From a virus (lineage: Duplodnaviria; Heunggongvirae; Uroviricota; Caudoviricetes): DNA of 13,107 nt. The translations under genes and the position numbers were made by a program. The stretch lies in IMG/VR virus record IMGVR_UViG_2648501150_000039, one strand, 5' to 3'. Shown here piece by piece: positions 1-13,100 of this stretch (the stretch's first letter is position 1; the number at the start of each line of letters is the position of its first letter). The notes beneath the pieces were generated by a model. It was not told where the DNA came from. It did no database searches and was given only the letters and a program-made list of their open reading frames with translations.

Positions 1-16
1 AACATGAGCAAACAGA

Positions 17-46
17 CAAAAAAAGGGCCAGCCAATTGGCCAGCCC
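17..46 (-). terminator. Putative rho-independent terminator downstream of the 204..1133 gene
   Basis: Read on the minus strand, plus 25..46 forms an imperfect GC-rich hairpin (GGGCTGGCC-AATT-GGCTGGCCC, two G-U pairs) followed by a 7-nt U tract (plus 17..24 is AAAAAAA). It lies about 160 nt past the stop of the minus-strand CDS. Confidence 0.45.
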
Positions 47-203
47 TTCTTAACAGGATGTCGCTTAAGCGAAATCTTAGTTAAGACGCTTTTACATGAT
101 ACCATTGATAAACATGCATTTTTCATTATAAACAGTTAGTTATATGTATCACTAGTGTAGTCAAGTGCAGCCATAAACATGCTGTGTGGGCAGATTGTGG
201 ACA

Positions 204-1133
204 CTACTTATTTCCCTGTCCAATCTTACCCGCAACTGCCTCGGTAAGCTTTACTAAGGTTTCAAGTTCATTTTTGTCTAATTTTCTTGCTTCAATAATT
301 TCAGTAGTCTGCCCTGATTCTAGTTTTCCAACTCTTGAGCTAAAATTAATTTTATCCAGAAGGTCTATCATATCGATATCTTTCTGGCTAGCCATTACAA
401 GCTTTATAATGGCATAGCTTTCCTCACGTGAACGTTTTATTGCCTCGTAATAGCGAAACTCATCCATCGTAACCCGATATTGCTTCAAAAAGAAAAATGC
501 GATTAACTCCAAGAAAATCAACACGCCAAAATTAGGGAGAAGATACATTACCTTGGTTACCGCATCATCCTTAGCATCAATTACATGTGATTGAGAATAG
601 AAGAAACCTAATCCAACTATTGCAAAACAAACACCGACTAATAAATAAAGACTACCGCGAGAATATATGTTTTTCGCAAGACCTTCAGAGCTATTAATCA
701 AACCTTTAAGATAAAAATCCAGAGATTCATCTTCATCAGCAGCAGCCCTTTCCTCTTGAGCCTTCTTGAGTAGTTTTATCTCATTTATAATATCGACAAT
801 ATTAAACATCGATGATTTGTCGACTGAATCACTCCCTGTAATTCTCATAAACATTCTTTGGATTGGAGACACACCATAGATAATGGTGTAAACGATTACA
901 AATGACACTGCGAATATTGACCTGATAAAGCTCGGCAAATGTGTAAGATCTGCTCTCGCACTGGGAAATAAATAATAAAAGGTTGAGTCTAATATCCCTG
1001 TAGCAAAAATTACATTTGCAACTAGAAAGACTGCACCTATCTCAACTAAATTATAAAAACCACGAGTGCGTACCCTAATGACTTTGGCCTCGGTCATTCT
1101 TGGAGGTGTTTCGATGGTTGGCTCACTCATCAT
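204..1133 (-). CDS. Hypothetical membrane protein, four predicted transmembrane helices in two hairpins separated by a charged coiled-coil-like linker; function unknown
   Basis: 309-aa uninterrupted ORF. Hydrophobic stretches LVEIGAVFLVANVIFATGIL, IFAVSFVIVYTIIYGV, LYLLVGVCFAIVGLGFFY and VLIFLELIAFFFL. AGGA lies upstream of an ATGATG start. The gene is visibly AT-rich compared with the tail genes. I recognise no family. Confidence 0.6.
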   Translation of the reverse strand: MMSEPTIETPPRMTEAKVIRVRTRGFYNLVEIGAVFLVANVIFATGILDSTFYYLFPSARADLTHLPSFIRSIFAVSFVIVYTIIYGVSPIQRMFMRITGSDSVDKSSMFNIVDIINEIKLLKKAQEERAAADEDESLDFYLKGLINSSEGLAKNIYSRGSLYLLVGVCFAIVGLGFFYSQSHVIDAKDDAVTKVMYLLPNFGVLIFLELIAFFFLKQYRVTMDEFRYYEAIKRSREESYAIIKLVMASQKDIDMIDLLDKINFSSRVGKLESGQTTEIIEARKLDKNELETLVKLTEAVAGKIGQGNK

Positions 1134-1410
1134 ATAATCCTGTTAAATTAGAAATAGGGTTAAGAGTTACAGCTTCTTCTAAATGATCTGGTGCAAAATG
1201 AGCGTATCTCATGGTTTCCCTAATGTTAGAATGGCCCAAGATTCGTTGCAGTACTAAAATGTTCCCACCATTCATCATAAAGTGACTCGCAAATGTATGA
1301 CGTAACACATTCGTTTTTTGCCCTTCAGCTAACTCTATATCGGTCAGAGCGAGCATTTTCTTGAACTCCTGATAGCAGGGGTGGAACATTTTTCCCTGTA
1401 AAGGAGCCAA
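1123..1410 (-). pseudogene. Tyrosine recombinase (phage integrase) C-terminal fragment, 5'-truncated
   Basis: The 95-aa translation carries the catalytic C-terminal signature of tyrosine recombinases (VLRHTFASH ... LGHSNIRETMRYAH, with the His/Arg and Tyr boxes). The N-terminal two thirds are absent: sequence upstream of 1410 encodes tail-fibre segments on the other strand. The stop TGA overlaps the ATGATG start of the 204..1133 gene. Confidence 0.85.
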
Positions 1411-1447
1411 CTCGTCATATAGCCACCGAGGGATCGGTACTGTACGA

Positions 1448-1473
1448 TTCTTCTTTCCCTTGGTTTGGGAGAA
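1448..1473. repeat. Left crossover site of invertible segment (gix/hix-like, about 26 bp)
   Basis: The reverse complement of 1458..1474 (CTTCTCCCAAACCAAGG) matches 3466..3482 (CTTCTCCTAAACCAACG) at 15 of 17 positions, in inverted orientation. The half-site TTCTCCCAAACC resembles the Hin/Gin half-site (TTCTTGAAAACC / TTATCCAAAACC as I recall them). The central dinucleotide is AA/TT. The site sits in the fibre reading frame and encodes G-L-G-E. Confidence 0.7.
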
Positions 1474-1959
1474 GGCTCTGCATTACCTGTTGGCGTCCCT
1501 GTTCCGTGGCCTTCAGCCACACCGCCAACAGGCTGGCTGAAATGCAATGGTGCAGCTTTTTCTGCTGAAGAATACCCGGAACTGGCAAAGGCTTATCCGG
1601 CAAATAAATTGCCTGATTTACGTGGTGAGTTTATTCGTGGCTGGGATGACGGACGGGGGATTGATACAGGTCGCTCTATTTTAAGTATTCAGGGGTATGC
1701 AACGGAGGATCATGCTCATGGATTACCGTCAAGATCCACGATTGTGACTGATGCAACGATTAATTTCTATTTTGATGAAAGCTGGGTAAATAGTGGCACT
1801 GACATTATCAAAAGAGGAAACACAAACGATGCCGGATTACCAGCACCGGATTATGGAACCTTTAAAACATATAAACAATCAGTGGCTGGTTTAGGTGCCG
1901 CAGCCTCAGAAACGCGTCCGCGTAATATTGCATTTAACTATATCGTGAGGTCAGCCTGA
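1465..1959 (+). CDS. Tail fibre C-terminal variable segment (Sv-like, tail-collar type); lacks the N-terminal constant part
   Basis: Translation contains tail-collar-like motifs (PTGWLKCNGAAFSAEEYPELAKAY, LPDLRGEFIRGWDDGRGIDTGR). The frame is open only from 1423 and has no upstream coding sequence to join. The stop overlaps the start of the next gene (TGATG). Confidence 0.8.
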   Translation: MGEGSALPVGVPVPWPSATPPTGWLKCNGAAFSAEEYPELAKAYPANKLPDLRGEFIRGWDDGRGIDTGRSILSIQGYATEDHAHGLPSRSTIVTDATINFYFDESWVNSGTDIIKRGNTNDAGLPAPDYGTFKTYKQSVAGLGAAASETRPRNIAFNYIVRSA

Positions 1960-2561
1960 TGCATAAAGCAATATTAAATAGTGAGCTTATTGCAACAAAG
2001 GCAGGGGATGTTACCGTTTATAACTACGATGGTGAAACACGGGAATATATTTCCACGTCAACTGAATATCTTGCGGTTGGCGTCGGTATCCCGGCATGTT
2101 CTTGTTTAGATGCGCCAGTTACACATAAAGCTGGTTATGCAATCTGCCGTTCTGCAGATTTTAACTCATGGGAATATGTGCCAGACCATCGCGGTGAAAT
2201 CATCTATAGCACCGAAACAGGAGAATCGAAAGAAATCACAGCTCCGGGTGATTATCCTGAAAATACAACCACTATCGCCCCGTTAACGCCATACGATGAA
2301 TGGGATGGTGAGAAATGGGTAACAGATACTGTGGCACAGCATAGCGCCGCAGTAGGCGCGGCAGAAGCACAGCGTCAGTCACTGATTGATAATGCAATGG
2401 CTTCCATTAGTCTGATTCAGCTGAAATTGCAGGCCGGACGGAATCTGACGCAGGCAGAAACCGCCCGACTTAACGCTGCGCTGGATTACATTGACGCGGT
2501 GACGGCAACAGATACCAGCACCGCGCCGGATGTCATCTGGCCTGAACTGCCGGAGGCGTAG
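1959..2561 (+). CDS. Tail fibre assembly protein (Tfa / P2 gpG / Mu U family)
   Basis: 200 aa, immediately downstream of the fibre variable segment. The C-terminal DVIWPELPEA matches the conserved Tfa C-terminal motif. Confidence 0.85.
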   Translation: MHKAILNSELIATKAGDVTVYNYDGETREYISTSTEYLAVGVGIPACSCLDAPVTHKAGYAICRSADFNSWEYVPDHRGEIIYSTETGESKEITAPGDYPENTTTIAPLTPYDEWDGEKWVTDTVAQHSAAVGAAEAQRQSLIDNAMASISLIQLKLQAGRNLTQAETARLNAALDYIDAVTATDTSTAPDVIWPELPEA

Positions 2562-2976
2562 GCCATTCAATATCTGGCGCACCGGAAGTATCGACCAGTT
2601 CCAGTGCGTCCAGATAATCCAGCCACAAATTATATTGCGCCAGTTCCTCACCTTTCAGGCGACCAATCGCCGCTTTACCAGGCCATTGCTTACTGTATAT
2701 GTATTCGTTGACCTGATTAATCAATTGCTGCTTTTCCAGTTCGGCTGCAGCAATTTGTTCCTCATGAGTTGGCGGTGGAATTTCCCCCCAGGTGGGAAGG
2801 CCATCATCACCCGCGATGCGTACTTTCCCTTGCAACGTTCTGTCTTCAATAAATTCCAGGTAAGTGTCATATGTCACTTCGACAACATCAGCAAGTTCCC
2901 ATCCGGCCTGTTCATATTTCGCCACATCATTTTTAGCGAAAAAACTATTTTTTGAGGCGCTATAAACCATTTCCAT
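2533..2976 (-). CDS. Alternative tail fibre assembly protein (Tfa', opposite orientation)
   Basis: 147 aa, convergent with the other tfa gene and overlapping its 3' end by 29 bp. The C-terminal DIEWPTPPAV matches the Tfa motif. This is the Mu U/U'-like arrangement. Confidence 0.8.
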   Translation of the reverse strand: MEMVYSASKNSFFAKNDVAKYEQAGWELADVVEVTYDTYLEFIEDRTLQGKVRIAGDDGLPTWGEIPPPTHEEQIAAAELEKQQLINQVNEYIYSKQWPGKAAIGRLKGEELAQYNLWLDYLDALELVDTSGAPDIEWPTPPAVQAR

Positions 2977-2977
2977 A

Positions 2978-3553
2978 TTAATACCCTACTGCAATATAAA
3001 AAACTGATTCACCAGCGTCCTGAGAACCTACCCCCGGAACGCCAGACCAGGTTTTGTTAATGAATGCAAAACTGGTATTACTCAGATCAGATGCTCTGTA
3101 CATCGGGCTGAACATCCAGTAGTTGGCTCCATATGTTTGTCCGAAAACAATGCCATAGCACTGATTTGTAAATGGCGTAGAAAATAATTTTCCACCAGTA
3201 CCAGCGATAGTCCCGAATCGCATCTGGAACCCATTCGGGAAATTAATTCCGCCTGCCGGTGAAGACCAGTAAGACATATCAGGTATTTGCCCAGCACTAT
3301 TTCCCACGTTTTTTGTTGCAACGGTTCCTAACCCAAGATTAGCTCTTGCGTCAGATTTATTTGTTAACTCATAAAGATTATTTGCCTTTTGAAGTGCTCC
3401 TATTATGCGTAAATCATCACCAGCGGCAACGGTTCCGACTGTCGTGCCCACATCCCTTTTCGCCGCTTCTCCTAAACCAACGTTTTCGTTTTTATCCCTA
3501 CCTATACCAACTCTGTATTTTTCACGAAACAAAGAGGATGTTTTTTTATGCAA
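2978..3553 (-). CDS. Alternative tail fibre C-terminal variable segment (Sv'-like)
   Basis: Open frame on the minus strand running through the right crossover site, where it encodes NENVGLGE (the same GLGE junction as the left site). It is glycine-rich and fibre-like, and lies immediately upstream of tfa' on the same strand. The tracked start is an artefact; there is no constant N-terminal region. Confidence 0.7.
   Translation of the reverse strand: MHKKTSSLFREKYRVGIGRDKNENVGLGEAAKRDVGTTVGTVAAGDDLRIIGALQKANNLYELTNKSDARANLGLGTVATKNVGNSAGQIPDMSYWSSPAGGINFPNGFQMRFGTIAGTGGKLFSTPFTNQCYGIVFGQTYGANYWMFSPMYRASDLSNTSFAFINKTWSGVPGVGSQDAGESVFYIAVGY
3467..3492. repeat. Right crossover site of invertible segment (gix/hix-like)
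   Basis: TTCTCCTAAACC-AA-CGTTTTCGTTTT; 3466..3482 is the inverted-repeat partner of 1458..1474. It lies 55 bp upstream of the invertase start codon. Confidence 0.7.
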
Positions 3554-4147
3554 ATTGGCTATATTCGTGTGTCAACAAATGACCAGAACACGGATTTACA
3601 ACGCAATGCACTGAACTGCGCAGGATGTGAACTGATTTTTGAAGATAAAATCAGCGGAACGAAATCAGCCAGACCGGGATTGAAAAAACTGCTCAGAACG
3701 CTATCAGAAGGAGATACGCTGGTTGTCTGGAAGCTGGACAGACTGGGCAGAAGTATGAAACACCTGATCACGCTTATTGAGGAATTGCGGGAAAAAGGTG
3801 TTAATTTCCGTAGTCTGACGGACAGCATTGACACATCAACACCCATGGGGCGTTTCTTTTTTCACGTCATGGGGGCTTTAGCCGAAATGGAACGTGAATT
3901 AATTGTAGAGCGTACACTGGCCGGGCTGGCAGCAGCACGCGCACAAGGACGCATTGGCGGACGTCGCCCGAAGTTGACAAAAGAACAACACGAGCAAATA
4001 GCGAGGCTGATTAAAAACGGTCATGACAGGAAACAACTGGCGATCATTTACGACATCGGCATATCGACGATTTATCGTTATCACCCTGTAGGCGATATAC
4101 AGGCTGAAGAAACAACCAGGCAGACTCAGGAAAATAAAAACCGCTAA
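3548..4147 (+). CDS. Site-specific DNA invertase, serine recombinase (Hin/Gin/Pin/Cin family)
   Basis: The N-terminus MQIGYIRVSTNDQNTDLQRNAL contains the catalytic serine motif of resolvase/invertases. A C-terminal helix-turn-helix region follows (GRRPKLTKEQHEQIARLIKNGHDRKQLAIIYDIGISTIYRY). AGAGGA lies upstream of the ATG. The gene is adjacent to the invertible fibre segment. Confidence 0.95.
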   Translation: MQIGYIRVSTNDQNTDLQRNALNCAGCELIFEDKISGTKSARPGLKKLLRTLSEGDTLVVWKLDRLGRSMKHLITLIEELREKGVNFRSLTDSIDTSTPMGRFFFHVMGALAEMERELIVERTLAGLAAARAQGRIGGRRPKLTKEQHEQIARLIKNGHDRKQLAIIYDIGISTIYRYHPVGDIQAEETTRQTQENKNR

Positions 4148-4164
4148 TCTGACCATTAGCGGTT
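4139..4164. terminator. Bidirectional terminator hairpin between convergent invertase and gpU genes
   Basis: AACCGCTAAT-CTGACC-ATTAGCGGTT forms a 10-bp stem. T/A-rich flanks on both sides (AAAATAAAAA upstream, TTTTGCG downstream). The invertase stop codon lies inside the stem. Confidence 0.55.
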
Positions 4165-4173
4165 TTGCGTTAA

Positions 4174-4668
4174 TCAAAACAGCCCTTTAACGGAGCTGGC
4201 CGCGCTGTTAAGGGATGATGTGACCTTATCTTTGAAGCCGGACAGCATATCACTGAACGATGAGGATTGCAGGCGCTCCCGCAAATCCTCATCACAGCGT
4301 TCAAGAGTCAGTGAAAATTCTATCTTTTTCGCCTTACCGTAGCGATCAAACTCGGAACGGGTCGTATTCGTTTCAGTCAGTACATACATGCCGTAAATCT
4401 GCCCGACACCATCAATCAGAGGCCAGGGGCGTCCTGTATATGCCTGCGTGGTCAGCAACGAAAGCGACACTTCGCCACCTGTAATTTCAGGATAAAGCAC
4501 GCCGGAAAGCACGATGCGATCATCACCTGCGCCGATATACTGCCAGCTTGCTGAACGGTTAACGCGTTCATTTTTCACATGCCGCCAGCTTTTGTTTTGC
4601 TGTAACTGCTGATGCGGCAATGTGCGCAGCTCAAAAACAAACATGCCGTAGATCATCATCATGGCCAT
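4174..4668 (-). CDS. Phage tail protein, P2 gpU-like
   Basis: 164-aa ORF directly downstream of the tape measure gene in the same orientation, matching the position and size of gpU in the P2 FI-FII-E-T-U-D order. The exact start among several N-terminal Met codons is uncertain. Confidence 0.75.
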   Translation of the reverse strand: MAMMMIYGMFVFELRTLPHQQLQQNKSWRHVKNERVNRSASWQYIGAGDDRIVLSGVLYPEITGGEVSLSLLTTQAYTGRPWPLIDGVGQIYGMYVLTETNTTRSEFDRYGKAKKIEFSLTLERCDEDLRERLQSSSFSDMLSGFKDKVTSSLNSAASSVKGLF

Positions 4669-4674
4669 GACTCC

Positions 4675-7524
4675 TCAATCTTTATCGTAAAAACTGCCAC
4701 GCCCGGCACGGGCGCGCCGTTCCATTTCTGCCCTGACCATTTCGCCAATCAGTTTCGCCAGTTCGCGGGGATTCTGTGTAACAACGTTATGCAGATGAAC
4801 ATGAATTTCACCGCCAAATCCGGAGGCAACAGGCTCCCGGTTACGGGAAGTTGCAGGAACTGATGCCACTGGCGATCGTATAGCCTCCGCCACCGGGCGG
4901 GAGCTGGCCGCAACAACAGGGACCAGCGCCGGAGGCAGCGGAGCCGGAACCACGGGTGTGATAGTAATTGCGGGGGCAGGCTTACTGACCTGCGCAATCT
5001 TCCGCTCCTGCCACTCCCCACGAACAGCAAGTGCGCGGGGCAGGTTCTTAAAGACAATATCGCCGGGGCCAATGCGTTTTTTCGTCTCATCAACCAGCTT
5101 ACCTGTGTTATCAGCAATTTTGCTGAGTCTGCGTAGCGTACCGGTATTGTTGTCTGTGAGCGGTTTGTTGTCTCTGGGTTTATCGCCTTTTTTGTCGTCG
5201 ACCTTATCTGACGGGGCCGGGCCGGGAGTCCATGGTTTCTGAACCATTTTCTTGAGAACCGGATCCCATTCCCACATTACAGGAGCCTTTGAAGCGTTCT
5301 CTATTTTCTTTCTCGCCCGTTCCGCTTCATCCGGAAGCACTCCGAGCTTTTCAAGTATCCACGCCAGTGAATCCATCAATGCTTTTGTTGGCGTCAGGAC
5401 AAGCTCTATCGCTCCACCGAGTACCCTGCCGAATACCTCGCCAGCACTGGTACATTTATCCAGCGTTTCCTTGCTGGACTCCATCGGTGACAGCAGCGAT
5501 TTAAACCAGTTAAAGACCTGAATAATCCCATCGCGCACGACATCAAAAACTGGACCGAACCGTTCAAAGGTTTCGCGCAACGGAGCCAGCCGTTCCATAA
5601 TCCCACTGAACACCCCTGCATAAAACGCCTTGATGGGTTCCCAGTATTTCCAGATGAGAACCGCCGCAGCCACAAACGCAGCAGCAATCAATCCGACCGG
5701 GCTGAACAGCGCCCCGATAGCGCCCCCCAGTAACGAAACGGAACCCGTCACCATTCCCCATAGTGCTGGCAGGAGCCTGACAGCATTCATTGATCCGGTC
5801 AGGAGGGAAAAGCCAAGACGCAGTTTTGCCAGCGGGCCAGCAAGCACACCAATAGCCAACGACAACGAGCCGACCGTTGCAGTCATCGCCAGCAATGCCC
5901 CACCTGCAATCAGTAGCTGGCGCGTCAGTGCCGGATGGGCCTGCGCCAGCGCCGTCACCTTTGATACCACCCGCGTGAGCCACTGCGTGACAGAACGCAG
6001 CGGACCGTCAATCAGATCTGCAATGCGGATGCGCAACCCTTCCCATGCACTGCCGAGTGATTTCAGATCGCCGTCAAGGTTGTTGGCCATAACCTTTGCT
6101 GTGCGTTCAGCCTCACCGCGCGCGCCTTCAAGTTCTTTTCTCAGTTTGGGTAAGGAGCCGTCACCCGCTGCATCAACGAGCGCCATAAACGATGTGAAAG
6201 CCTCTTCTCCGGCAATGTCCTTAAAGAACGATACCCGGTCAACTTCCCCGTATTTGCGGGTGGCTTTATAAAGGTCGGCCAGTACATCCTCCATCGGGCG
6301 CATTTTGCCGTTCGCGTCAGAGACAGCCACACCCAGCTCTTTCAGCGCCTCTGCTGCCGCCTTTGGCGGTGATGCCAGACGAGCCAGGCTGGCACGCATT
6401 GCCGTCCCGGCATCACTCCCTCTGATGCCCATATTCGCCAGCACGCCCGCCATCGCAGCGGCCTGCTCCAGCGATATTCCCAGCTTACCCGCCACCGGAC
6501 CTGCATATTTCATGGTTTCGCCCAGCGCGCGAAGGTCAGTGTTGGTACGGGTAAACGCCGCTGTAAGCGTGTCGCCAACCCGGTCCATCTGGTCAGCAGA
6601 GAGGCCGAACTGCGTCAGGATATTTGAGCCAATATCCGCCGTCTCGCCGAGATCCATACCGCCAGCCGTTGCCATGCTCAGCACGCCGGGAAACGCAGCC
6701 TGAATGGCCTGCGGAGTAAAACCAGCCATTGCAAGAAATGCCTGTCCACTGGCGGCATCTCCAGCGGTGAACTGCGTTTCAGAGCCAAGTTTTAACGCCT
6801 GCTCACGCAGCGCCTTAAACTGTGGGCTGTTTTTGTCGATTCGCGTCAGTGCCTGAACGCGGGACATCTCTTTCCCGAACCCAATCGCGGGCTGCAAAAA
6901 ACGCCCGGCAGCATAGCCGCCCGCCGCTGCCGCACCTGTTGCCAGTGCACCACCTGTTTTCAGTTTTCCCGCGGTTTCCTGCGCGCGCGAATACCGCTCA
7001 CGCGCCCGCGTTACACGCGCAAGCGCCTGCCGTTCGCGTTCAAGCTGGTTGTTGTACTGTTCGGTGCGTCTGATGGCCTGCTGGATGGTGTTATCGCTGC
7101 CTGTCAGGGAAATGCCGTGGCGTTTCAGCTCTCCGCCAAGCTCCCGCATTTTCTGAATCTCCCGTGTGCGCGATTCATTCAGGCGTTCAAGCCGGGTGCT
7201 TAACTGCTGCATCAGCTTTTGTTGTTTTTCGCTGAGCACTGTACCCGTGCGTTGTAACTGATTAAGGGCGTTAAGCTGGCGTCGTGCTTTCACGATACCC
7301 GCATCCGCTTTACTGACAGCGTCGCGGGCGCGCTCAAATGAACGCGCCTGACGCTCGAGATTTTTGATCGCCCCCTGCGTTCGCTGGATGGAGTCACCAA
7401 ACTGCCCCATCAGGCGGCGTGCGTTTTCTGCAGGTCGGGTCAGCCTGTCAACGGCGCTGAAAGCGACCCGGATATCAAGAGTCTTCATTGTCTGCATTCC
7501 CGCTGCGAAGTGCCGCCCGCTCAC
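4675..7524 (-). CDS. Tail tape measure protein (P2 gpT-like)
   Basis: 949-aa ORF with a coiled-coil N-terminal third (repeated QRTxxL, ERxRQALAR-type heptads), a central Gly/Ala-rich hydrophobic segment, and a position between E/E' and U. The true start may be an internal Met (MQTMKTL), overlapping the end of E'. Confidence 0.9.
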   Translation of the reverse strand: MSGRHFAAGMQTMKTLDIRVAFSAVDRLTRPAENARRLMGQFGDSIQRTQGAIKNLERQARSFERARDAVSKADAGIVKARRQLNALNQLQRTGTVLSEKQQKLMQQLSTRLERLNESRTREIQKMRELGGELKRHGISLTGSDNTIQQAIRRTEQYNNQLERERQALARVTRARERYSRAQETAGKLKTGGALATGAAAAGGYAAGRFLQPAIGFGKEMSRVQALTRIDKNSPQFKALREQALKLGSETQFTAGDAASGQAFLAMAGFTPQAIQAAFPGVLSMATAGGMDLGETADIGSNILTQFGLSADQMDRVGDTLTAAFTRTNTDLRALGETMKYAGPVAGKLGISLEQAAAMAGVLANMGIRGSDAGTAMRASLARLASPPKAAAEALKELGVAVSDANGKMRPMEDVLADLYKATRKYGEVDRVSFFKDIAGEEAFTSFMALVDAAGDGSLPKLRKELEGARGEAERTAKVMANNLDGDLKSLGSAWEGLRIRIADLIDGPLRSVTQWLTRVVSKVTALAQAHPALTRQLLIAGGALLAMTATVGSLSLAIGVLAGPLAKLRLGFSLLTGSMNAVRLLPALWGMVTGSVSLLGGAIGALFSPVGLIAAAFVAAAVLIWKYWEPIKAFYAGVFSGIMERLAPLRETFERFGPVFDVVRDGIIQVFNWFKSLLSPMESSKETLDKCTSAGEVFGRVLGGAIELVLTPTKALMDSLAWILEKLGVLPDEAERARKKIENASKAPVMWEWDPVLKKMVQKPWTPGPAPSDKVDDKKGDKPRDNKPLTDNNTGTLRRLSKIADNTGKLVDETKKRIGPGDIVFKNLPRALAVRGEWQERKIAQVSKPAPAITITPVVPAPLPPALVPVVAASSRPVAEAIRSPVASVPATSRNREPVASGFGGEIHVHLHNVVTQNPRELAKLIGEMVRAEMERRARAGRGSFYDKD

Positions 7525-7711
7525 GCCAGCTAACCACTTCGCCGGGCGTCATCATGAAGATTTCGGCGGGCGACCAGTTAAAAATAACGGCAATATCTGC
7601 CACAAAGTCTTCTATGTGCTCAAAGCACACAACCGTGATCAGGCTTCCGTCGCCTGTTCGTTCTTCCCGCCAGAGTCCGCACCGCTCAAAAAATTTACGG
7701 CAACCACACAT
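7475..7711 (-). CDS. E' frame: C-terminal extension of the E+E' tail assembly chaperone, reached by -1 frameshift
   Basis: This ORF is in the -1 frame relative to E, begins around the slippery heptamer, and ends overlapping the start of T, as in the P2 E/E'/T arrangement. It is not an independent gene. Confidence 0.7.
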   Translation of the reverse strand: MCGCRKFFERCGLWREERTGDGSLITVVCFEHIEDFVADIAVIFNWSPAEIFMMTPGEVVSWRERAALRSGNADNEDS

Positions 7712-8004
7712 AACTGAATAAAGTCACGGGATGCCATTTTTTTGATCGTCACTTCATCCAGTCGCGGTGATGTCACGCGTGACAGCAGCGTAAACATGGA
7801 TTCCGCTTTCAGATTCAGCACATCAGACAGCGACAAATCTCGCAGAGATCCAGCCTGCTCAATAGCCCCGGTGATCTCCACATACGTGATTTTTTCGCCG
7901 CCTCGCTCAATTGGTTGGGTAAGTTTTACGCCACGCTCACTGGTTTCTTTCACAGTGTCAGCAACTACCGTGTTTTCGGTATCGATGTTTTTCGTCTCTT
8001 TCAT
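7639..8004 (-). CDS. Tail assembly chaperone, P2 gpE-like (0-frame product)
   Basis: 121-aa ORF between the tail tube and tape measure genes. AAAGGAG lies 7 nt upstream of the ATG. It contains the slippery site near its 3' end. Confidence 0.75.
   Translation of the reverse strand: MKETKNIDTENTVVADTVKETSERGVKLTQPIERGGEKITYVEITGAIEQAGSLRDLSLSDVLNLKAESMFTLLSRVTSPRLDEVTIKKMASRDFIQLCVVAVNFLSGADSGGKNEQATEA
7687..7693 (-). other. Programmed -1 ribosomal frameshift slippery heptamer T_TTT_TTG (E to E+E')
   Basis: The minus strand reads GTA AAT TTT TTG AGC in the E frame (V N F L S). Slipping back one nucleotide enters the 7475..7711 frame (RKFFERCGLW...). TTTTTTG is the heptamer used by P2-like E/E' genes. 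Confidence 0.75.
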
Positions 8005-8058
8005 CAGGAAACTCCTTTCAGTCAGAGGCGGCGCACTGCGCCGCCTGCATATTACTTA

Positions 8059-8571
8059 TCAGCCAAGCCCAAGCGCGGAACGGATGCGATCGGGCACAAT
8101 GTCCTTGCCGTCCTTCCGGTAAATGAAGTTCAGCAGGTCAATCTCCCACAACGGGCGATCGTTAACACTCAGCTTGTAGTAGGTGTTTTTAATGGCGTAA
8201 GTGTGTGATGTGGCTTCGCCCTGTTTGGCTTCCCCCATATCAATTTCCGTCACACGTCCGCGCATCTCGATTTCATACAGATCGCTTTCTGCATCGGTGT
8301 AGTATTCACCCGCAAAACGCAGCAGCGTGCCGTCAATCGTGCCGCCATACTTAAGGAACAGCTCACGAACTGCGCCCCCCATGACAAAGCTCGCATCAAG
8401 CGCGGAGTCGTCCAGACCGAGATCAATACTTACCGCACCCATCATGCCACCACCCCGGTAGCTGTCGGTTTTGCGCGTCAGCTTAGGCAGAGTGACGGAC
8501 GTCACCTTACCCACTTCGTTTTCACCATCCACAAACAGCGTAAAAAAGCGAAGATGTTTTGGTACAGCCAT
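8059..8571 (-). CDS. Tail tube protein (P2 gpFII-like)
   Basis: 170 aa, immediately downstream of the sheath gene with a TGATG stop/start overlap. Size and position match the P2 tube protein. Confidence 0.85.
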   Translation of the reverse strand: MAVPKHLRFFTLFVDGENEVGKVTSVTLPKLTRKTDSYRGGGMMGAVSIDLGLDDSALDASFVMGGAVRELFLKYGGTIDGTLLRFAGEYYTDAESDLYEIEMRGRVTEIDMGEAKQGEATSHTYAIKNTYYKLSVNDRPLWEIDLLNFIYRKDGKDIVPDRIRSALGLG

Positions 8572-9755
8572 CAGGCACCTCCCAGCACCGCAAATGCGGG
8601 ACCAAAGAATTCATCAGTAAACGACTGGTAAAGCTCCATGTCTTCCAGCGGGGGAACAGGCGTATATTTGTAGCGAATACGCACACGCCCCTGACGTAAA
8701 TTCGTGGTGCCGTTATCCACCACGTCATACCAGCACGACGCCCCAATCAGTTTCCCGGCAGTAACCAGTGAATCCAGTTTTGCCCTGATGGCACTGATAA
8801 CATCTTTCACGTTCGCAGGCGTCAGTGGACTGTCGATGGTTTCAAACTGCGCTTCCGCAATTGAATCAGCCAGCACCTGTGCGGTTCGGGTATACACCTC
8901 AAAGATGTAGGCGTTCGTTTCCGGTGTGCGGTTGCCCCAGAAGCGGAACCCGTTGCGACGAATAATGGTCGTGATTTCTTTGTTGTTGAGGCTGTTGGCA
9001 TCGCTGTCTTCGGCCTGCAACGACCAGAACACATGCCTGGACATCCCCAGCACATTTTTAACCGGAACGTTGGACAGTGATTTGTGCCATCCCTGCTCAT
9101 GGTCAATGTACGCACGAAGGCCGCACGCATAGGCAGGCGCGGGGAACGTTTCGTTTTTGCCACTTTTCGGGTTGTAGGCGATGAAGTCCGGCCATAAGAG
9201 CATCACCTCACGTTCGTTGAATTTCTGGCGGTAGGTAATCACCTCAGCCATCGTGTTACAGCCGTGACATGAGGCATACACAAACGCGCGCAGTTTACCC
9301 GCAATCACGCACAGGGATTTTGTCACCGCCTCCGTGTCCAGCTCCGGCGCGGCCAGAATACGCGGACGGTATCCGATGCTTTCATCCTGCTCTGCAACAA
9401 GCAGCGCATACATCCCCGTATAGCTGCCGTCAGATTCAGAACCACCGATAACCAGTTGATCCTGCGTCTTTCCGTCTTCTTCTTTGTGTTCAGCCACGCG
9501 AACGACGATCACCTTTGTGCTCACCTGGTCTGCGATGGCCTTAAGCGCACGATAAAGCGTCCCCGTTGTCCCGCATTTTCCCAGCACGTCATTGACGCGG
9601 GTCAGCAGTGTGGGCTTGTTCAGCGGGAACAGCTTCGCGTCCGCATCATCCGCCGTTGCCACGATACCGATAACGCTGGAATCAACATCGTTAATCGCTG
9701 TTACCAGGTCGGTATTTTCCGTAACACGGGCACCATGAAAACGAGTTTCACTCAT
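8571..9755 (-). CDS. Contractile tail sheath protein (P2 gpFI-like)
   Basis: 394 aa. Motifs I recall from P2 FI are present: FPLNKP, KLRAF, YRQKF, WPDF, EQGWHKSLSNV, RRNGFRFWGNRT, YTRTAQV, YTPVPPLE. AAGGGG lies upstream of the ATG. Confidence 0.92.
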   Translation of the reverse strand: MSETRFHGARVTENTDLVTAINDVDSSVIGIVATADDADAKLFPLNKPTLLTRVNDVLGKCGTTGTLYRALKAIADQVSTKVIVVRVAEHKEEDGKTQDQLVIGGSESDGSYTGMYALLVAEQDESIGYRPRILAAPELDTEAVTKSLCVIAGKLRAFVYASCHGCNTMAEVITYRQKFNEREVMLLWPDFIAYNPKSGKNETFPAPAYACGLRAYIDHEQGWHKSLSNVPVKNVLGMSRHVFWSLQAEDSDANSLNNKEITTIIRRNGFRFWGNRTPETNAYIFEVYTRTAQVLADSIAEAQFETIDSPLTPANVKDVISAIRAKLDSLVTAGKLIGASCWYDVVDNGTTNLRQGRVRIRYKYTPVPPLEDMELYQSFTDEFFGPAFAVLGGA

Positions 9756-9912
9756 AGCTTTAGCCCCTTGTATCCGTTAAATGATTCGGCAACAATCATC
9801 ACCCACCACGCGCGTAATCTCACCCCTGTGCCGTTCTCCCGATCCGGCGACAACAAAAAGCAGTAACCCCCTCCGCACGCACATGCGACCATGCCGCACA
9901 GGGAGGGAACAG

Positions 9913-11022
9913 ATGACCGATACCACCATGCAATTGCTCAGTCAGGGCACAGACCCCGTGAAAATGCCGGATTTTGATATTCTCGCGGAGGGTAAAACGC
10001 TGTCAGGCGTGGCAGAGCGCCTGATGAGCCTGTCACTGACCGACAACCGGGGATTTGACGCGGACCAGCTCACCATCACGCTGGATGATGCGGATGGTCA
10101 GTTGCAGCTACCGCCACGGGGCGCGCGCCTGACGGTTCTCATTGGCTGGAAAGGAGAACCGCTGACAGAAAAAGGCACTTACATTGTTGATGAAATCGCT
10201 CACGAAGGACCGCCGGACAGGCTGACTGTTTCAGCCAGAAGCGCAGATTTTCGGGATGAATTTAACGTTAAACGTGAGGTGTCCTGGCATGATGTGACCG
10301 TTGAGCGTGTGGTATCCGCCATCGCTCATCGGTATGGTCTGAAACCGCAAATCAGCGAAATGCTGATGGATATCGAAATCGACCACGCCGACCAGACCGA
10401 AGAAAGCGATATGTCCTTCCTTACGCGCATGGCGGAAATGCTGGGCGCAATCACCACGGTAAAAAGCGGCAATCTGTTATTCATCATGCCAGGTGGTGGC
10501 GTGAACGCACAGGGCCAGCCGTTGCCATCGTTCGCCATCACACGCAGCAGCGGCGATCGCCATCAGTTCCGCATTGCTGACCGCGAGGCGTATACGGGGG
10601 TACGCGCTTACTGGCTTGATCTTAATTACGGGAAAAAGAAAAAAGTCAGCGTGAAACGCCGCAAACCGCCAAAACCCAAAAAGGAGAAAAGCAGCAGCCG
10701 TGAAGGTGATTATATGGAAGGCGCGGAAGGCAATGTGTTTGTGTTACGCAAGACTTATCAGAACGAGCAGGCAGCAAGACGCGCAGCGGCGGCAAAGTGG
10801 CAGCAGCTACAACGCGGAGCCGCATCATTTTCCATCACGCTGGCGCGTGGACGTGCAGAACTCTACCCCGAAATGCATGGCACGGTAACAGGATTTAAAA
10901 GCGAGATTGATAATCAGGACTGGATTATTGCAAAAGCCGAGCACACCATTGATAACAGCGGCTTTACCACGCAGCTTGAGCTTGAGGCAAAAATCCCGGA
11001 ATGGATAGCAGAAACAGCGTGA
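9913..11022 (+). CDS. Phage late control gene D family tail protein (P2 gpD-like)
   Basis: Long ORF; the likely start is the ATG at 9913, preceded by GGGAGGGAA (the tracked ORF starts upstream at 9781). Size is about 370 aa. The call rests on overall resemblance to P2 gpD as recalled and on its position next to the other P2 tail genes and ogr. Confidence 0.8.
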   Translation: MTDTTMQLLSQGTDPVKMPDFDILAEGKTLSGVAERLMSLSLTDNRGFDADQLTITLDDADGQLQLPPRGARLTVLIGWKGEPLTEKGTYIVDEIAHEGPPDRLTVSARSADFRDEFNVKREVSWHDVTVERVVSAIAHRYGLKPQISEMLMDIEIDHADQTEESDMSFLTRMAEMLGAITTVKSGNLLFIMPGGGVNAQGQPLPSFAITRSSGDRHQFRIADREAYTGVRAYWLDLNYGKKKKVSVKRRKPPKPKKEKSSSREGDYMEGAEGNVFVLRKTYQNEQAARRAAAAKWQQLQRGAASFSITLARGRAELYPEMHGTVTGFKSEIDNQDWIIAKAEHTIDNSGFTTQLELEAKIPEWIAETA

Positions 11023-11075
11023 ATGTCTTAAATGTATTAGTTCAGATATGTACTAGCAATAAACATAGTTAGAAA

Positions 11076-11091
11076 GGCCGCTAACGCGGCC
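11076..11091. terminator. Hairpin between convergent gpD and the 11114..12283 gene (possible bidirectional terminator)
   Basis: GGCCGC-TAAC-GCGGCC, a 6-bp GC stem with a tetraloop in an AT-rich context. It is located after both stop codons. The U-tracts are weak. Confidence 0.4.
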
Positions 11092-11113
11092 ATATTAATT
11101 AAAACTCCAGTTA

Positions 11114-12283
11114 CTAATATTGAGAAAGATAATCAGCGACTCCATCTGCAGGGTTTCGCCCACCAGTATAAATTGTGCCTAATTCTTGAGGTGTAACATA
11201 TGTTGTAGGCCAAATGGCCATATTTTTAAAATAGTTATCTATTTTTATTCTTTGAAGTTCTTTAAAGAGATAATCTTCTAAGTCATTTCTTTTTAGACAG
11301 TTAACATAATAAGCAGCCGCACTTGCTACTATATCTACAATTTGTAATTGAGGATACTCTTGTGATGAATGGAATGTCAAAGAACGAGCTTTAATTGGCA
11401 ATTCAAATTTTCTTCGATCATAACCATATGCCTCCGTAATTTTTGATATATCCATAAATTTATCAAAAATATCTTTCTTCTCTGTAATAGCTTTGGAATC
11501 GTCATGCTTAATATAAAAACCATTAGGGTATAATTTACCCCATTCTACACAGTGTCTAAAGAGGCTTGGTATAGATGGATCTAATGTGCTTTTCTCAACA
11601 CCTTCCAATATATCATCAATATCGCTTCTGGTAATACTAATTCTGTTTATTATATCTGTGAATATCTTATCACTTGAGCATATCTTTAACTCATCAATTA
11701 CCCTGTAAAATTCATCAATTGACTCAGTCGATTGGCTTCTGATCATATTCATAAAACACTGATACATTACCTCTGTTTTTTCCTCCCCACAGAAAGCAGG
11801 GAAACAGAAATAGTAAACATTAGACAGAGCTAGATTCTGTCCATTTATATAAAGATCTATTCCTCTATTAGAGCACCACGTCTCGATCAAAATATCAACA
11901 ATCTTTGCTGTTAGCATGTATTTTTTATCGACCAAGTATATTTTAACATTCTCTTCATTGACATATTTGCTTTCAAGAAGCCTAATGATGCCATCCTGAC
12001 CAGATTTTCTACGTCTAAGAGTTTTAAAGTGGGCTTCTGTTGGAGACTTGCTTCCGGTTAGTTCTAATGCCTTAAGCGCATCCTGTTTACTAATACTACT
12101 TGAACTTAAGGTAAAAACAGGTTGCAATGGATCGAGTAAATTTCCGCCAGTATTACCTGATTCATCAAAAAATATATCAGGCTTTATATACAACATTTTA
12201 TTTATCTTTGCCGCTAAGTTTCTTTTTTTCTCATTTTCTCGCTTAATTTTATTATCTCGCCTACGTTGACTATTCTTTCCCAT
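11114..12283 (-). CDS. Hypothetical protein, AT-rich cargo gene; possible DUF3800-like family (motif-level recall only)
   Basis: 389-aa uninterrupted ORF antisense to both gpD and ogr. K/R-rich N-terminus, then DIFFDESGNTGG; near the C-terminus QLQIVDIVASAAAYY. These resemble the DESG and Q-x-x-(A/V)-D signatures I associate with DUF3800. Codon usage is strongly AT-biased, unlike the flanking phage genes. Confidence 0.65.
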   Translation of the reverse strand: MGKNSQRRRDNKIKRENEKKRNLAAKINKMLYIKPDIFFDESGNTGGNLLDPLQPVFTLSSSSISKQDALKALELTGSKSPTEAHFKTLRRRKSGQDGIIRLLESKYVNEENVKIYLVDKKYMLTAKIVDILIETWCSNRGIDLYINGQNLALSNVYYFCFPAFCGEEKTEVMYQCFMNMIRSQSTESIDEFYRVIDELKICSSDKIFTDIINRISITRSDIDDILEGVEKSTLDPSIPSLFRHCVEWGKLYPNGFYIKHDDSKAITEKKDIFDKFMDISKITEAYGYDRRKFELPIKARSLTFHSSQEYPQLQIVDIVASAAAYYVNCLKRNDLEDYLFKELQRIKIDNYFKNMAIWPTTYVTPQELGTIYTGGRNPADGVADYLSQY

Positions 12284-12515
12284 AAATACCTCACAATCTG
12301 AATTAGATATCCCAATTTAACGCATTAATAACATAATGTTATGATATCACACAATCAAAATAACGTGCTGATTTTAATGTATCAGGTTTGACTAGCTATT
12401 CTTTGATAAGCGAATAATAAGAATGTCAGCCCCTCAACTCAAAGCGGTTTAGTCAGTTGGAATCGGAGCTAGTAGAACTTAAAATAACAGAAGCACCACG
12501 TTAAGGGAGGTCTCT

Positions 12516-12776
12516 ATGTTCCGTTGTCCGCTTTGTGGCGCATCTGCCCGTATCCGCACAAGTCGTCCGGAAAATGATTCAAACACCGTGCGGCAAAAGT
12601 ATTACCAGTGTAACAACCTGGAATGCGGCGTATGCTTCTCAACACTGGAAGCCTTCCATAAATTCACATCAAAACACGCCTCCGCCGTTCACTCTTCAGA
12701 AGGTATCCCGTGGCATGAGCTGCCAGCTTCACACAGGGGAAACAATCAGATGAGTTTGCCTTTACCTCAGAACTAA
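12516..12776 (+). CDS. ogr: Ogr/Delta-family zinc-finger late transcription activator
   Basis: The N-terminus MFRCPLCGASARIRTSR ... YYQCNNLEC gives a C-x2-C ... C-x4-C zinc-finger spacing close to P2 Ogr (MFHCPLC ... CQNVNC). Strong SD AAGGGAGG lies upstream. It sits downstream of gpD, as in P2. Confidence 0.85.
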   Translation: MFRCPLCGASARIRTSRPENDSNTVRQKYYQCNNLECGVCFSTLEAFHKFTSKHASAVHSSEGIPWHELPASHRGNNQMSLPLPQN

Positions 12777-12785
12777 CAGGCAGAA

Positions 12786-12814
12786 TTGCCGGATTAACAA
12801 AAAAGCGATAGATT
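12786..12814 (+). promoter_or_regulatory. Putative sigma70 promoter for the hok-family mRNA
   Basis: TTGCCG (12786..12791), a 17-nt spacer, then TAGATT (12809..12814). The predicted transcript would start about 145 nt upstream of the toxin ATG, giving the long structured leader typical of hok mRNAs. Confidence 0.3.
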
Positions 12815-12836
12815 ACGCGCGGGTGCCTTTCGGCTG

Positions 12837-13100
12837 ATGGTCGGAGGGAATACCCGAAGGCCAGATGTGGAAAGGCCCCGGAAAACATCTCTGTTTAACC
12901 GAGGCCCTAACCGCATTACCTTGACAAGTGAAAGGTTAGCGCCTCTCCGGAAAAGGAGCAAGTGCTATGTCGCAAAAATCGCTTACGGCCATCACGTTCT
13001 GCGTGACGGCAATCCTCATCATCTGGATGCTGCACGGTTCACTGTGCGAAATACGGATGAGCTTCTGGGGAGCGGAGTTTGCGGCGTTCTTACAGTGTAA
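12837..13100 (+). other. mok-like overlapping reading frame (possible translational-coupling ORF for the hok-family toxin)
   Basis: 87-codon ORF in a different frame that overlaps almost the whole toxin ORF and ends 7 nt before it. This is analogous to mok in hok/sok loci, but may be fortuitous. Confidence 0.3.

What the first reader, a model, noticed from the sequence alone, without database searches (positions are those of the whole stretch)
204..1133. AT-rich four-helix membrane protein gene translationally overlapping the stop of a truncated integrase
The int fragment's stop overlaps the ATGATG start of this ORF (ATGATGAGTGA), so the two frames were once co-transcribed. The product has two transmembrane hairpins separated by a charged coiled-coil-like linker and a soluble C-terminal tail. 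That architecture recalls membrane-disrupting abortive-infection effectors, but I cannot match it to a named family. It sits at the integrase-proximal edge of the element, another location where phage cargo accumulates.
Basis: partly seen in the sequence, partly recalled or inferred. Interest (0 to 1): 0.7.

Follow-up and report, generated by a model that had tools for sequence, protein, structure and literature searches.

The report
Variable prophage membrane gene, probable phage defence
A real, conserved gene for a four-helix inner-membrane protein sits right after the integrase of a decayed 186/P2-type prophage, in a slot where related phages carry anti-phage genes; it is probably an untested defence gene of an uncharacterised family.

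Summary
ORF 204-1133 (minus strand, 308/309 aa, 37% GC) overlaps the stop of an integrase fragment by 8-11 nt and encodes four hydrophobic helices.

In intact 186-like prophages the order is cI, int, then this gene, about 100 bp from the attachment site in the 3' end of rplS.

Two E. coli prophages share 99% (CI) and 96.5% (Int) protein identity, but this gene's product is only 46% identical. DNA identity collapses exactly across the ORF.

Within one allele lineage dN/dS is 0.08-0.11, so the protein is functional. Orphan copies survive where the prophage is gone.

The same slot in related phages holds a dCTP deaminase and PADLOC candidates PDC-S15 and PDC-S33. Distant homologues lie beside Lamassu-like, reverse-transcriptase, Abi_C and PIN genes, with no conserved partner.

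No Pfam, PADLOC, PDB or fold match is significant. The only lead is a sub-threshold hit of TM3-TM4 to PF20712, plus weak SLATT fold hits.

The exact protein, WP_001294850.1, is already listed as a predicted, untested defence gene by DefensePredictor (2026).

Best reading: a lysogen-expressed single-gene membrane defence. It is most likely a gated membrane-permeabilising abortive-infection effector, but the mechanism is unproven.

The parts
204..1133 (-). Gene X. It encodes a 308/309-aa inner-membrane protein (WP_001294850.1). TM1 is ~aa 27-49, TM2 67-89, a variable charged cytoplasmic loop 90-157, TM3 160-181, TM4 195-216 and a conserved cytoplasmic helical tail 217-308.
   Evidence: ORF and translation. 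RefSeq CDS. Hydropathy. AF2. Topology from K+R density. Conservation profile. dN/dS 0.08-0.11.
1138..1141 (-). AGGA ribosome-binding motif, 7 nt upstream of the second ATG (1130) and inside the end of the integrase frame.
   Evidence: Read directly from the sequence.
1123..1461 (-). C-terminal fragment of a 186/P2-type tyrosine integrase (about codons 233-345 of 345). Its stop codon (1123-1125) overlaps the start of gene X.
   Evidence: Translation. RefSeq pseudogene annotation. 99.4% DNA match to nt 695-1030 of an intact integrase. Breakpoint mapping.
1448..1473 (-). Invertase crossover-like site, TTCTCCCAAACC-AA-GGGAAAGAAGAA, at the exact junction between the integrase fragment and the tail-fibre invertible segment. 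Its inverted partner is at 3467-3492.
   Evidence: The inner half-site recurs inverted at 3467-3482 with 2 mismatches (0.17 matches expected by chance). The intact integrase carries a quasi-site at the same place.
103..203 (-). Prophage-specific 3' untranslated stretch between the stop of gene X and the attachment boundary (35.6% GC).
   Evidence: In genomes without the prophage, homology to the window stops at base 102. GC content.
1..102 (.). Chromosomal flank. It holds the bidirectional yfiB terminator hairpin (20-51) and the attachment core, which duplicates the last codons of rplS (about 78-102).
   Evidence: Terminator scan. All 5,426 E. coli genomes match 1-102, and in empty sites the match overlaps the 3' end of rplS. 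Sequence reading.

Best explanation
**What it is.** Gene X is accessory cargo of 186-like (P2-family) temperate phages that integrate into the 3' end of rplS. It occupies the slot between the integrase gene and the attachment site.

**Expression (inferred).** In an intact prophage it would be read as the last gene of the lysogenic cI-int-X operon, coupled to the integrase by an 8-nt overlap. This rests on gene order plus the established pL-cI-int organisation of phage 186.

**The protein (shown).** It has four transmembrane helices in the inner membrane. Both termini and about 185 of its 308 residues are cytoplasmic.

**Function (inferred).** It most likely protects the lysogen against other phages as a single-gene system.
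- The conserved half would be the effector: TM3, TM4 with a near-invariant intramembrane Glu208, the motif FFFLxQYR, and the following helices. It would oligomerise into an ion-conducting or pore-like assembly that collapses membrane potential and aborts infection.
- The poorly conserved half (TM1-TM2 plus the charged loop) would set what is sensed or keep the effector closed.

**In this window.** The prophage has been cut down. The integrase is broken at an invertase crossover site, and gene X survives intact.

**My probabilities.** About 0.6 for anti-phage function of any kind. About 0.35 for the membrane-permeabilising abortive mechanism specifically.
For: **1. It is a real, constrained gene.**
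- dN/dS is 0.08-0.11 between the E. coli, Cedecea and orphan Citrobacter alleles.
- The family has 2,458 representatives at 50% clustering.

**2. It lies in the lysogenic operon.** The order is 186-type cI, then int, then X, on one strand, with an 8-nt overlap.
- 14 of 27 IMG/VR contigs that carry the family show it beside a 186-type cI and int.
- In most of those it lies at the very end of ~33.5-34 kb elements.

**3. It behaves as an arms-race cassette.**
- Between two E. coli prophages, CI is 99% and Int 96.5% identical, but X is only 45.6% identical.
- DNA identity is 95-100%, falls to about 40-50% exactly across the ORF, and recovers about 20 bp after its stop.
- At least five allele lineages, 38-56% identical to one another, occupy the same rplS-yfiB site in E. 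coli, Citrobacter and Enterobacter.

**4. The slot holds defence genes.** Directly after related integrases lie:
- a dCTP deaminase (PADLOC E=4e-145);
- FRG/PDC-S15 (E=7e-112);
- RelA_SpoT/PDC-S33;
- several unknown families.
The literature calls the P2 int-att interval a minor defence hotspot (PMC13586616).

**5. It is retained after prophage loss.** Intact orphan copies persist with only an integrase stub, or none.

**6. Distant homologues sit in conflict contexts.**
- Beside Lamassu-like genes in Pseudomonas.
- Beside reverse transcriptase, a protein kinase and an OLD-like gene in Flavobacterium.
- Next to Abi_C, PIN_12 and DUF6602 genes.
- At a prophage edge in Alcaligenes.

**7. An independent prediction agrees.** WP_001294850.1 scores a mean log-odds of 6.2 (cutoff 4) as a 'predicted novel defense gene' in DefensePredictor Table S10 (PMC13092281).

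**8. There are hints about the effector.**
- Conservation concentrates in TM3, TM4 and the post-TM4 helix (about 3 bits per position, against 0.5-1.9 in the N-terminal half).
- Gly166 and Gly173 are invariant, and Glu30 and Glu208 are near-invariant.
- The family consensus scores 22.3 bits (gathering threshold 24.3, E=1.4e-4) against PF20712, a 2-TM domain named for its association with TRADD-N domains. 58 of 104 members hit it weakly.
- Four SLATT-annotated proteins appear among weak BFVD fold hits.
Against: - No experiment shows phage resistance or toxicity. The protein is not among the 118 units tested by DefensePredictor, and no validated hit carries the family motifs.
- There is no significant match to any PADLOC model: the single protein, all 104 members.
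- There is no significant match to Pfam SLATT models or to any solved structure.
- The AF2 model is only moderate (pLDDT 69.3, pTM 0.57). As a monomer it says nothing about pores.
- The PF20712 signal is below threshold and mostly covers about 19 residues at the end of TM4.
- No consensus promoter remains upstream in this remnant, so this copy may be silent.
- The gene is absent from 50,697 deposited phage genomes by tblastn.
- Guilt by association and an ML score that itself uses genomic context are not independent proof.
Confidence: 0.5

Rival explanations
1. Gene X is a superinfection-exclusion protein. It sits in the inner membrane of the lysogen and blocks genome entry of incoming phages, for example by occupying or altering the inner-membrane component that injection needs. 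Infected cells are not killed.
For: - It is a lysogen-expressed prophage membrane protein.
- Its allelic diversity at a fixed slot would suit specificity for different incoming phages.
- No partner gene is needed.
- From established knowledge, known exclusion proteins such as P22 SieA, T4 Imm and HK97 gp15 are inner-membrane proteins.
Against: - The periplasmic loops are only about 12-20 residues. The conserved parts are the TM3-TM4 core and a ~90-residue cytoplasmic tail.
- The family spans Proteobacteria, Bacteroidota, Bacillota and Acidobacteriota, and also sits in non-prophage defence islands. That is broader than the phage-specific families typical of exclusion proteins.
- Neither point is decisive.
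Confidence: 0.22
2. Gene X is a lysogenic-conversion or addiction gene unrelated to phage defence. It could be a membrane channel or stress factor that raises host fitness. It could also be a toxin-like membrane protein that stabilises the element.
For: - It is under purifying selection and orphan copies are retained in several genera.
- Conserved intramembrane acidic residues suggest ion handling.
- No defence homology was found.
Against: - Sharp cassette replacement next to near-identical integrases is typical of conflict genes.
- So are neighbouring known or candidate defence cargo in the same slot and defence-island contexts in distant taxa.
- No antitoxin-like partner ORF lies between the gene and the attachment site.
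- No conserved neighbour was found.
Confidence: 0.15
3. Gene X serves the phage's own life cycle. It could be a holin- or antiholin-like lysis regulator, or a membrane factor that assists integration or excision.
For: It is translationally coupled to the integrase. It is a small multi-pass membrane protein like some holins.
Against: - Most related integrases have no such gene, or an unrelated one, downstream: only 5 of 80 loci carry X.
- Near-identical phages carry alleles only 46% identical.
- The gene persists where the phage is gone.
- It occurs away from prophages.
- The P2/186 lysis genes lie elsewhere in the genome (established knowledge of P2/186 gene order).
Confidence: 0.04

Closest known systems
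Cargo of the P2-family integrase-attachment site defence hotspot (PMC13586616), and the classic P2 lysogenic-conversion genes old, tin and fun(Z)
   Same: - It is AT-rich accessory DNA in a P2/186-type prophage, expressed in the lysogen.
- It lies between the integrase and the attachment site.
- Slot content varies among closely related phages.
- The literature reports about 3% of recognisable P2 defence systems in this interval.
   Different: - The protein family itself is not in DefenseFinder or PADLOC-type catalogues.
- Old, Tin and Fun(Z) are unrelated soluble proteins at other P2 positions (established knowledge).
- Here the slot is repeatedly filled by divergent alleles of one family.
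Lambda RexB (of RexAB)
   Same: It is a prophage-encoded four-TM inner-membrane protein transcribed with the repressor in the lysogen. Its proposed action is ion leakage that aborts infection (RexB properties from established knowledge; X topology).
   Different: - No sequence relation: the PADLOC RexB model hits 1 of 104 members at E=0.086.
- X is twice as long and has a large conserved cytoplasmic tail.
- There is no RexA-like partner or any conserved neighbour.
SLATT-type two-TM effector domains, including Pfam PF20712 (CyanoTRADDas_TM), from Aravind-lab conflict systems
   Same: - It has a TM hairpin followed by cytoplasmic helices, about 150 residues in all.
- It occurs in conflict and defence contexts.
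- There is a sub-threshold profile hit on TM3-TM4 (22.3 bits against 24.3).
- SLATT-annotated viral proteins appear among weak fold hits.
- SLATT domains were predicted to be pore-forming effectors (PMC7159879).
   Different: - The hit is below the family threshold and is mostly a 19-residue stretch.
- No SLATT_1-6 model appears among the 25 most frequently matched Pfam families.
- No linked nucleotide-signal enzyme is conserved nearby.
- There is an extra variable N-terminal TM hairpin, and it is not a detectable duplicate of the C-terminal one.
- Whether PF20712 belongs to the SLATT clan could not be checked here.
MotA/ExbB/TolQ-type stator proteins (ZorA of Zorya) and KwaA of Kiwa
   Same: The overall layout matches: TM hairpin, cytoplasmic loop, TM hairpin, cytoplasmic tail, with long helices running from the membrane into the cytoplasm. 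ZorA and KwaA are membrane components of defence systems (established knowledge).
   Different: - hhalign against E. coli TolQ gives 0.3% probability.
- MotA and ExbB structures appear only at Foldseek E~1-3 with TM-score <=0.28.
- There are no PADLOC ZorA or KwaA hits.
- There is no MotB/ExbD/ZorB/KwaB-like partner.

Membership tests
P2/186-family integrase-attachment site defence-cargo slot | Lies between the integrase gene and the attachment site of a P2/186-type prophage | tested here: met
   The order is cI-int-X, followed by the attachment boundary about 100 bp after the X stop. X lies at contig ends in ~34-kb IMG/VR elements.
P2/186-family integrase-attachment site defence-cargo slot | Content of the slot varies among closely related phages and includes recognised defence genes | tested here: met
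   Int is 96.5% identical against 45.6% for X, with sharp DNA boundaries. Other occupants are a dCTP deaminase, FRG/PDC-S15, RelA_SpoT/PDC-S33 and unknown families.
Experimentally validated anti-phage defence system | Reduces plating or plaque size of phages when expressed | not testable with these tools
   Only an ML prediction exists: log-odds 6.2 in DefensePredictor Table S10. The protein is absent from the tested and validated tables S6-S8, and no validated protein carries the family motifs. Brenes & Laub 2025 is not held in the paper library.
SLATT / PF20712 two-TM effector domains | Profile match at or above the Pfam gathering score | tested here: inconclusive
   For PF20712, the best single member gives E=5e-4, 58 of 104 members hit at E<=5, and the family consensus scores 22.3 bits against a 24.3 cutoff. 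No SLATT_n model is among the top 25 families. Weak SLATT fold hits have E 0.5-2.
SLATT / PF20712 two-TM effector domains | Genomic linkage to a signal-generating or sensor partner (SMODS, TIR, reverse transcriptase, STAND NTPase, TRADD-N) | tested here: not met
   No gene family recurs next to X in 29 diverse loci. One Flavobacterium locus has reverse transcriptase and a kinase upstream. In enterobacterial prophages X stands alone after the integrase.
Lambda RexB | Sequence match to RexB and an adjacent RexA | tested here: not met
   The PADLOC RexB model hits 1 of 104 members at E=0.086. No partner gene is present.
MotA/ExbB/TolQ (ZorA-like) stators | Homology to the MotA_ExbB domain and a MotB/ExbD/ZorB-type partner | tested here: not met
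   No Pfam hit. hhalign against TolQ gives 0.3% probability. Foldseek TM-score is <=0.28 at E>1. No partner gene is present.
Kiwa KwaA / CBASS 4TM effectors | Match to the PADLOC models and presence of KwaB or a CD-NTase | tested here: not met
   There is no KwaA hit. The 'Effector 4TM' model hits 1 of 104 members at E=0.0068. No such neighbours are present.

The most novel reading that the evidence does not exclude
The family is a widespread, self-contained sensor-effector ion channel of bacterial immunity. A conserved SLATT-like TM3-TM4 pore module would be gated directly, without any nucleotide second messenger or partner protein, by a fast-diversifying N-terminal TM hairpin and loop. That module would recognise a phage membrane or injection event. 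Temperate phages would swap alleles of it as a cassette behind their integrase to change which rivals they exclude.
Probability: 0.25. Interest if true: 0.7.

Novelty: new variant of a known kind. Interest (0 to 1): 0.45.

Why it matters
**If the defence role holds.** It would add a single-gene membrane system with no homology to catalogued defences. The family is large and phylogenetically wide, with 2,458 clusters at 50% identity. It would also be a natural allelic series at one phage locus, which is convenient for mapping specificity by swapping domains.

**Use in annotation.** The short interval after the integrase of 186-like prophages behaves as a defence cassette site, and single orphan genes at old attachment sites can be its remnants.

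**What tempers the interest.**
- The exact protein is already flagged as a predicted defence gene (DefensePredictor 2026).
- The int-att hotspot has already been noted (NAR 2026).
- It is one of about a thousand such predictions in E. coli.

Tried and rejected
- **Direct family assignment failed.** Pfam, NCBIfam and PADLOC gave nothing significant for the single protein. The Cas5a and Cas5c hits at E~1e-3 to 1e-4 fall on the helical tail and are treated as noise. PHROGs gave only an unknown-function family, phrog_5157.
- **Sequence search of PDB chains with the family profile** found nothing.
- **MotA/ExbB/TolQ-like stator idea rejected**.
- **Internal duplication, i.e. tandem SLATT-like halves, rejected.** hhalign of the N-terminal against the C-terminal half gave 0.5% probability.
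- **Search for a conserved partner gene** across 29 genomic loci found none. No small ORF of note lies between the gene and the attachment site.
- **A second profile search of the 5.8-billion-protein set** added no annotated or domain-fused relatives.
- **tblastn against 50,697 deposited phage genomes** gave no match.
- **Rfam on the whole window** gave nothing.
- **Literature checks.**
  - The accession occurs nowhere in paper full texts, only in DefensePredictor Table S10.
  - 'CyanoTRADDas' is not found in any held paper.
  - Brenes & Laub 2025 is not held.
  - No supplements are held for the NAR 2026 paper.
- **dN/dS within orphan-allele groups** was impossible, because the copies differ by 0-1 nt.
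Full report
**1. What is in the sequence**

The ORF lies at 204-1133 on the minus strand.
- It is 309 aa from the first ATG and 308 aa from the second. The second is the RefSeq start of WP_001294850.1, annotated 'hypothetical protein' in E. coli E2348/69.
- An AGGA motif lies 7 nt before the second ATG.
- The upstream frame ends ...GLYDE-TGA inside ATGATGAGTGA, so the integrase stop overlaps the ORF by 8-11 nt.
- That frame is only the last ~113 codons of a tyrosine integrase, and RefSeq calls it a pseudogene lacking its N-terminus.
- Against an intact 345-aa copy the match ends at window ~1461.
- The ORF is 37.0% GC, against 48.5% for the window.
- A stop-free run of this length has a chance probability of about 6e-11.

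The protein has four hydrophobic segments, at ~27-49, 67-89, 160-181 and 195-216.
- AlphaFold2 with a 104-sequence alignment gives an all-helical model (pLDDT 69.3). TM3 and TM4 continue as long helices, 133-181 and 190-247.
- K+R density across 274 family members is 0.15-0.19 in the N-tail, the TM2-TM3 loop and the C-tail, but 0.07-0.08 in the two short loops.
- This puts both termini and about 185 residues in the cytoplasm.

The exception is 'coiled-coil-like', which rests on a low-confidence, poorly conserved segment.

**2. Where the gene belongs**

Window 1-2784 is 99.5% identical to the yfiB side of a P2-like prophage remnant in E2348/69.

The identical protein occurs in intact prophages of other E. 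coli, for example PCN033.
- The order there is 186-type CI repressor, integrase (345 aa), gene X, on one strand, with a 4-nt gap and then an 8-nt overlap.
- This array is divergent from the Apl/CII/Fil/Dhr early genes. Cedecea shows the same arrangement.
- From what is known of phage 186, cI and int form the lysogenic pL operon. X is therefore probably its last gene. This step is inferred.

In genomes without the prophage, homology to the window stops at base 102 and overlaps the end of rplS. The element thus integrates into the 3' end of rplS, and X lies about 100 bp inside the boundary.

This integrase allele and X occur in exactly the same 17 of 5,426 complete E. coli genomes.

In IMG/VR, 14 of 27 contigs with a family member have it beside a 186-type cI and int. 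It is usually the terminal gene of ~33.5-34 kb elements.

**3. A sharply bounded variable cassette under purifying selection**

Two E. coli prophages at the same site have CI 99% and Int 96.5% identical, but X only 45.6% identical.
- DNA identity runs at 95-100% through cI and int.
- It drops to about 40-50% exactly over the X ORF.
- It returns to 90-100% about 20 bp after the stop.

Integrase stubs in Citrobacter are 86-94% identical to the E. coli integrase, while their X alleles are 41-50% identical. At least five lineages, 38-56% identical to each other, occupy this locus in E. coli, Citrobacter and Enterobacter.

Within one lineage the gene is strongly constrained.
- dN/dS is 0.08 for E. 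coli against an orphan Citrobacter copy, and 0.11 for E. coli against Cedecea.
- Both halves of the protein are below 0.15.

Orphan copies persist in several genera after the prophage is lost.
- In Citrobacter, X remains with a 76-82-aa integrase stub.
- In Enterobacter hormaechei, no integrase is left at all.

**4. The slot is a defence-cargo site**

I examined 80 IMG/VR loci with related integrases (57-100% identity).
- 5 carry X.
- 34 end within 300 bp of the integrase.
- 41 carry something else.

Several unrelated genes start within about 35 nt of the integrase stop. These include:
- an FRG-domain protein (PADLOC candidate PDC-S15, E=7e-112);
- RelA/SpoT-like proteins (PDC-S33);
- three or more families with no annotation.

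A dCTP deaminase (PADLOC E=4e-145) lies about 385 nt downstream of the integrase in one locus, on the opposite strand.

A 2026 study of P2 and P4 hotspots independently reports the P2 integrase-attachment interval as a minor defence hotspot, holding 3% of P2 systems (PMC13586616).

**5. The family at large**

The profile finds 2,458 representatives at 50% clustering (327 at E<=1e-30). Almost all are ~280-340 aa single-module proteins with no Pfam domain and no name.

Members occur in Proteobacteria, Bacteroidota, Bacillus, Acidobacteriota and others.

In 29 loci no neighbouring gene family recurs. The contexts are nevertheless conflict-like:
- a prophage edge in Alcaligenes;
- next to Lamassu-type genes in Pseudomonas;
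- after a reverse transcriptase and a protein kinase, near an OLD-like gene and a Mu-like prophage, in Flavobacterium;
- beside Abi_C, PIN_12 and DUF6602 proteins elsewhere.

**6. What the protein resembles**

Conservation is concentrated in TM3, TM4 and the helix after TM4, at about 3 bits per position. The N-terminal half has 0.5-1.9 bits. Conserved positions include:
- invariant G166, G173, F206, F214, L215 and R233;
- near-invariant E30 (TM1), P89, R158, Y162, P199, G202, E208 (TM4), Q217-Y218-R219, R235, E280 and K283.

One consistent weak signal exists.
- 58 of 104 members hit Pfam PF20712, 'Cyanobacterial TRADD-N associated 2-TM domain' (best E=5e-4).
- The family consensus scores 22.3 bits against a 24.3-bit cutoff.
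- The aligned stretch is mostly the end of TM4.

In BFVD, four SLATT-annotated giant-virus proteins appear among hits at E 0.5-2. SLATT domains were predicted to be pore-forming effectors of conflict systems (PMC7159879). I treat this as a lead, not as membership.

Other resemblances were tested and rejected.
- MotA/ExbB/TolQ-like stators share the layout, but hhalign against TolQ gives 0.3% probability and Foldseek TM-scores are <=0.28.
- The two halves are not a detectable duplication.

**7. Prior knowledge**

WP_001294850.1 is listed in Table S10 of DefensePredictor (Science 2026, PMC13092281).
- Its mean log-odds is 6.22, against a cutoff of 4.
- It is labelled 'Predicted novel defense gene'.
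- Its homology fields are empty.

It is not in the tested or validated tables. No validated protein there carries the family's motifs. So the gene is a published prediction, not a characterised system.

**8. Interpretation**

Shown:
- It is a real, constrained inner-membrane protein gene.
- It is coupled to the integrase in the lysogenic arm of 186-like prophages.
- It is a cassette-like variable locus in a slot that also holds defence genes.
- It is retained as an orphan.
- It has no partner gene.

Inferred:
- It defends lysogens against other phages (about 0.6).
- The conserved TM3-TM4-tail module is an oligomeric ion-leak or pore effector, and the variable N-terminal half governs sensing or gating. 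This is the abortive-infection model (about 0.35).

Rivals:
- Non-abortive superinfection exclusion is the main rival (about 0.2).
- A non-defence membrane function or addiction role comes next (about 0.15).
- A phage life-cycle role is unlikely, because the gene is dispensable among near-identical phages and survives without them.

In this window the copy may or may not be expressed, since no consensus promoter was found upstream of the integrase stub.

**9. Verdict**

The finding is a new variant of a known kind, namely a prophage-borne membrane defence or exclusion gene. It belongs to an uncharacterised family that is already flagged computationally. Interest is moderate.

Noticed in passing
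window 1448-1473 and 3467-3492: The integrase is broken exactly at a DNA-invertase crossover-like site, TTCTCCCAAACC-AA-GGGAAAGAAGAA. Its inner half-site recurs inverted at 3467-3482, next to the Cin/Gin-type recombinase gene (3548-4147), bounding a ~2-kb tail-fibre invertible segment. The intact integrase has a quasi-site (..CACTAAAACGAAGGGAAAGAAGAA) at the same place. The prophage may therefore have been deleted or rearranged by invertase action at a secondary site.
   Followed up: partly
window 1-2784 versus 3466-13107: The window is a mosaic. The left 2.8 kb matches the rplS/yfiB-site remnant of E2348/69 at 99.5%. The right ~9.6 kb matches, at 96.4%, a P2-like prophage that sits next to ihfA in strains such as TUM13770, where the tail genes run opposite to gpD and ogr in the same way. 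This suggests recombination between two P2-family prophages within the tail-fibre region.
   Followed up: partly
window 11114-12283 (minus strand): A second AT-rich cargo gene (33% GC, 389 aa) lies between gpD and the ogr-like gene. RefSeq annotates the near-identical copy as a DUF3800 domain protein.
   Followed up: no
window 12968-13107 and 12516-12776: A Hok/Gef-family small membrane toxin ORF (MSQKSLTAITFCVTAILIIWMLHGSLCEIR...) ends exactly at the window's last base (stop codon 13105-13107). It lies just after an Ogr/Delta-type zinc-finger gene. Rfam found no Sok-like or other RNA at gathering score.
   Followed up: no
window 52-102; L001 23605-23952: The attachment site of this 186-like phage lineage overlaps the last codons of rplS (ribosomal protein L19). 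The window keeps a partial duplicate (..AAG CGT CTT AAC TAA) next to yfiB.
   Followed up: partly
L001 22677-23399; L013 6036-6758; L085 4178-4900: A 240-aa, 39%-GC protein with no Pfam or PADLOC match recurs at this site. It lies next to rplS at the far end of the E2348/69 remnant. A 90%-identical copy lies directly upstream of orphan X in Enterobacter hormaechei. A visibly similar 240-aa protein follows the integrase in an IMG/VR contig (similarity read by eye from the N-terminal sequence, not aligned). It may be another cargo gene of the same island.
   Followed up: partly
L066 (IMG/VR contig 2840427236_000013) 4205-6775: In one viral contig the family member lies between the cI-type repressor and the integrase (cI-X-int) instead of after the integrase.
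   Followed up: no
L021 3859-7903 (Flavobacterium sp. 2): Reverse transcriptase (565 aa), Ser/Thr protein kinase (316 aa) and a family member (300 aa) lie in a same-strand row beside a PRTase/OLD-like gene and a Mu-like prophage. Here the membrane protein could be the effector of a multi-gene system.
   Followed up: no
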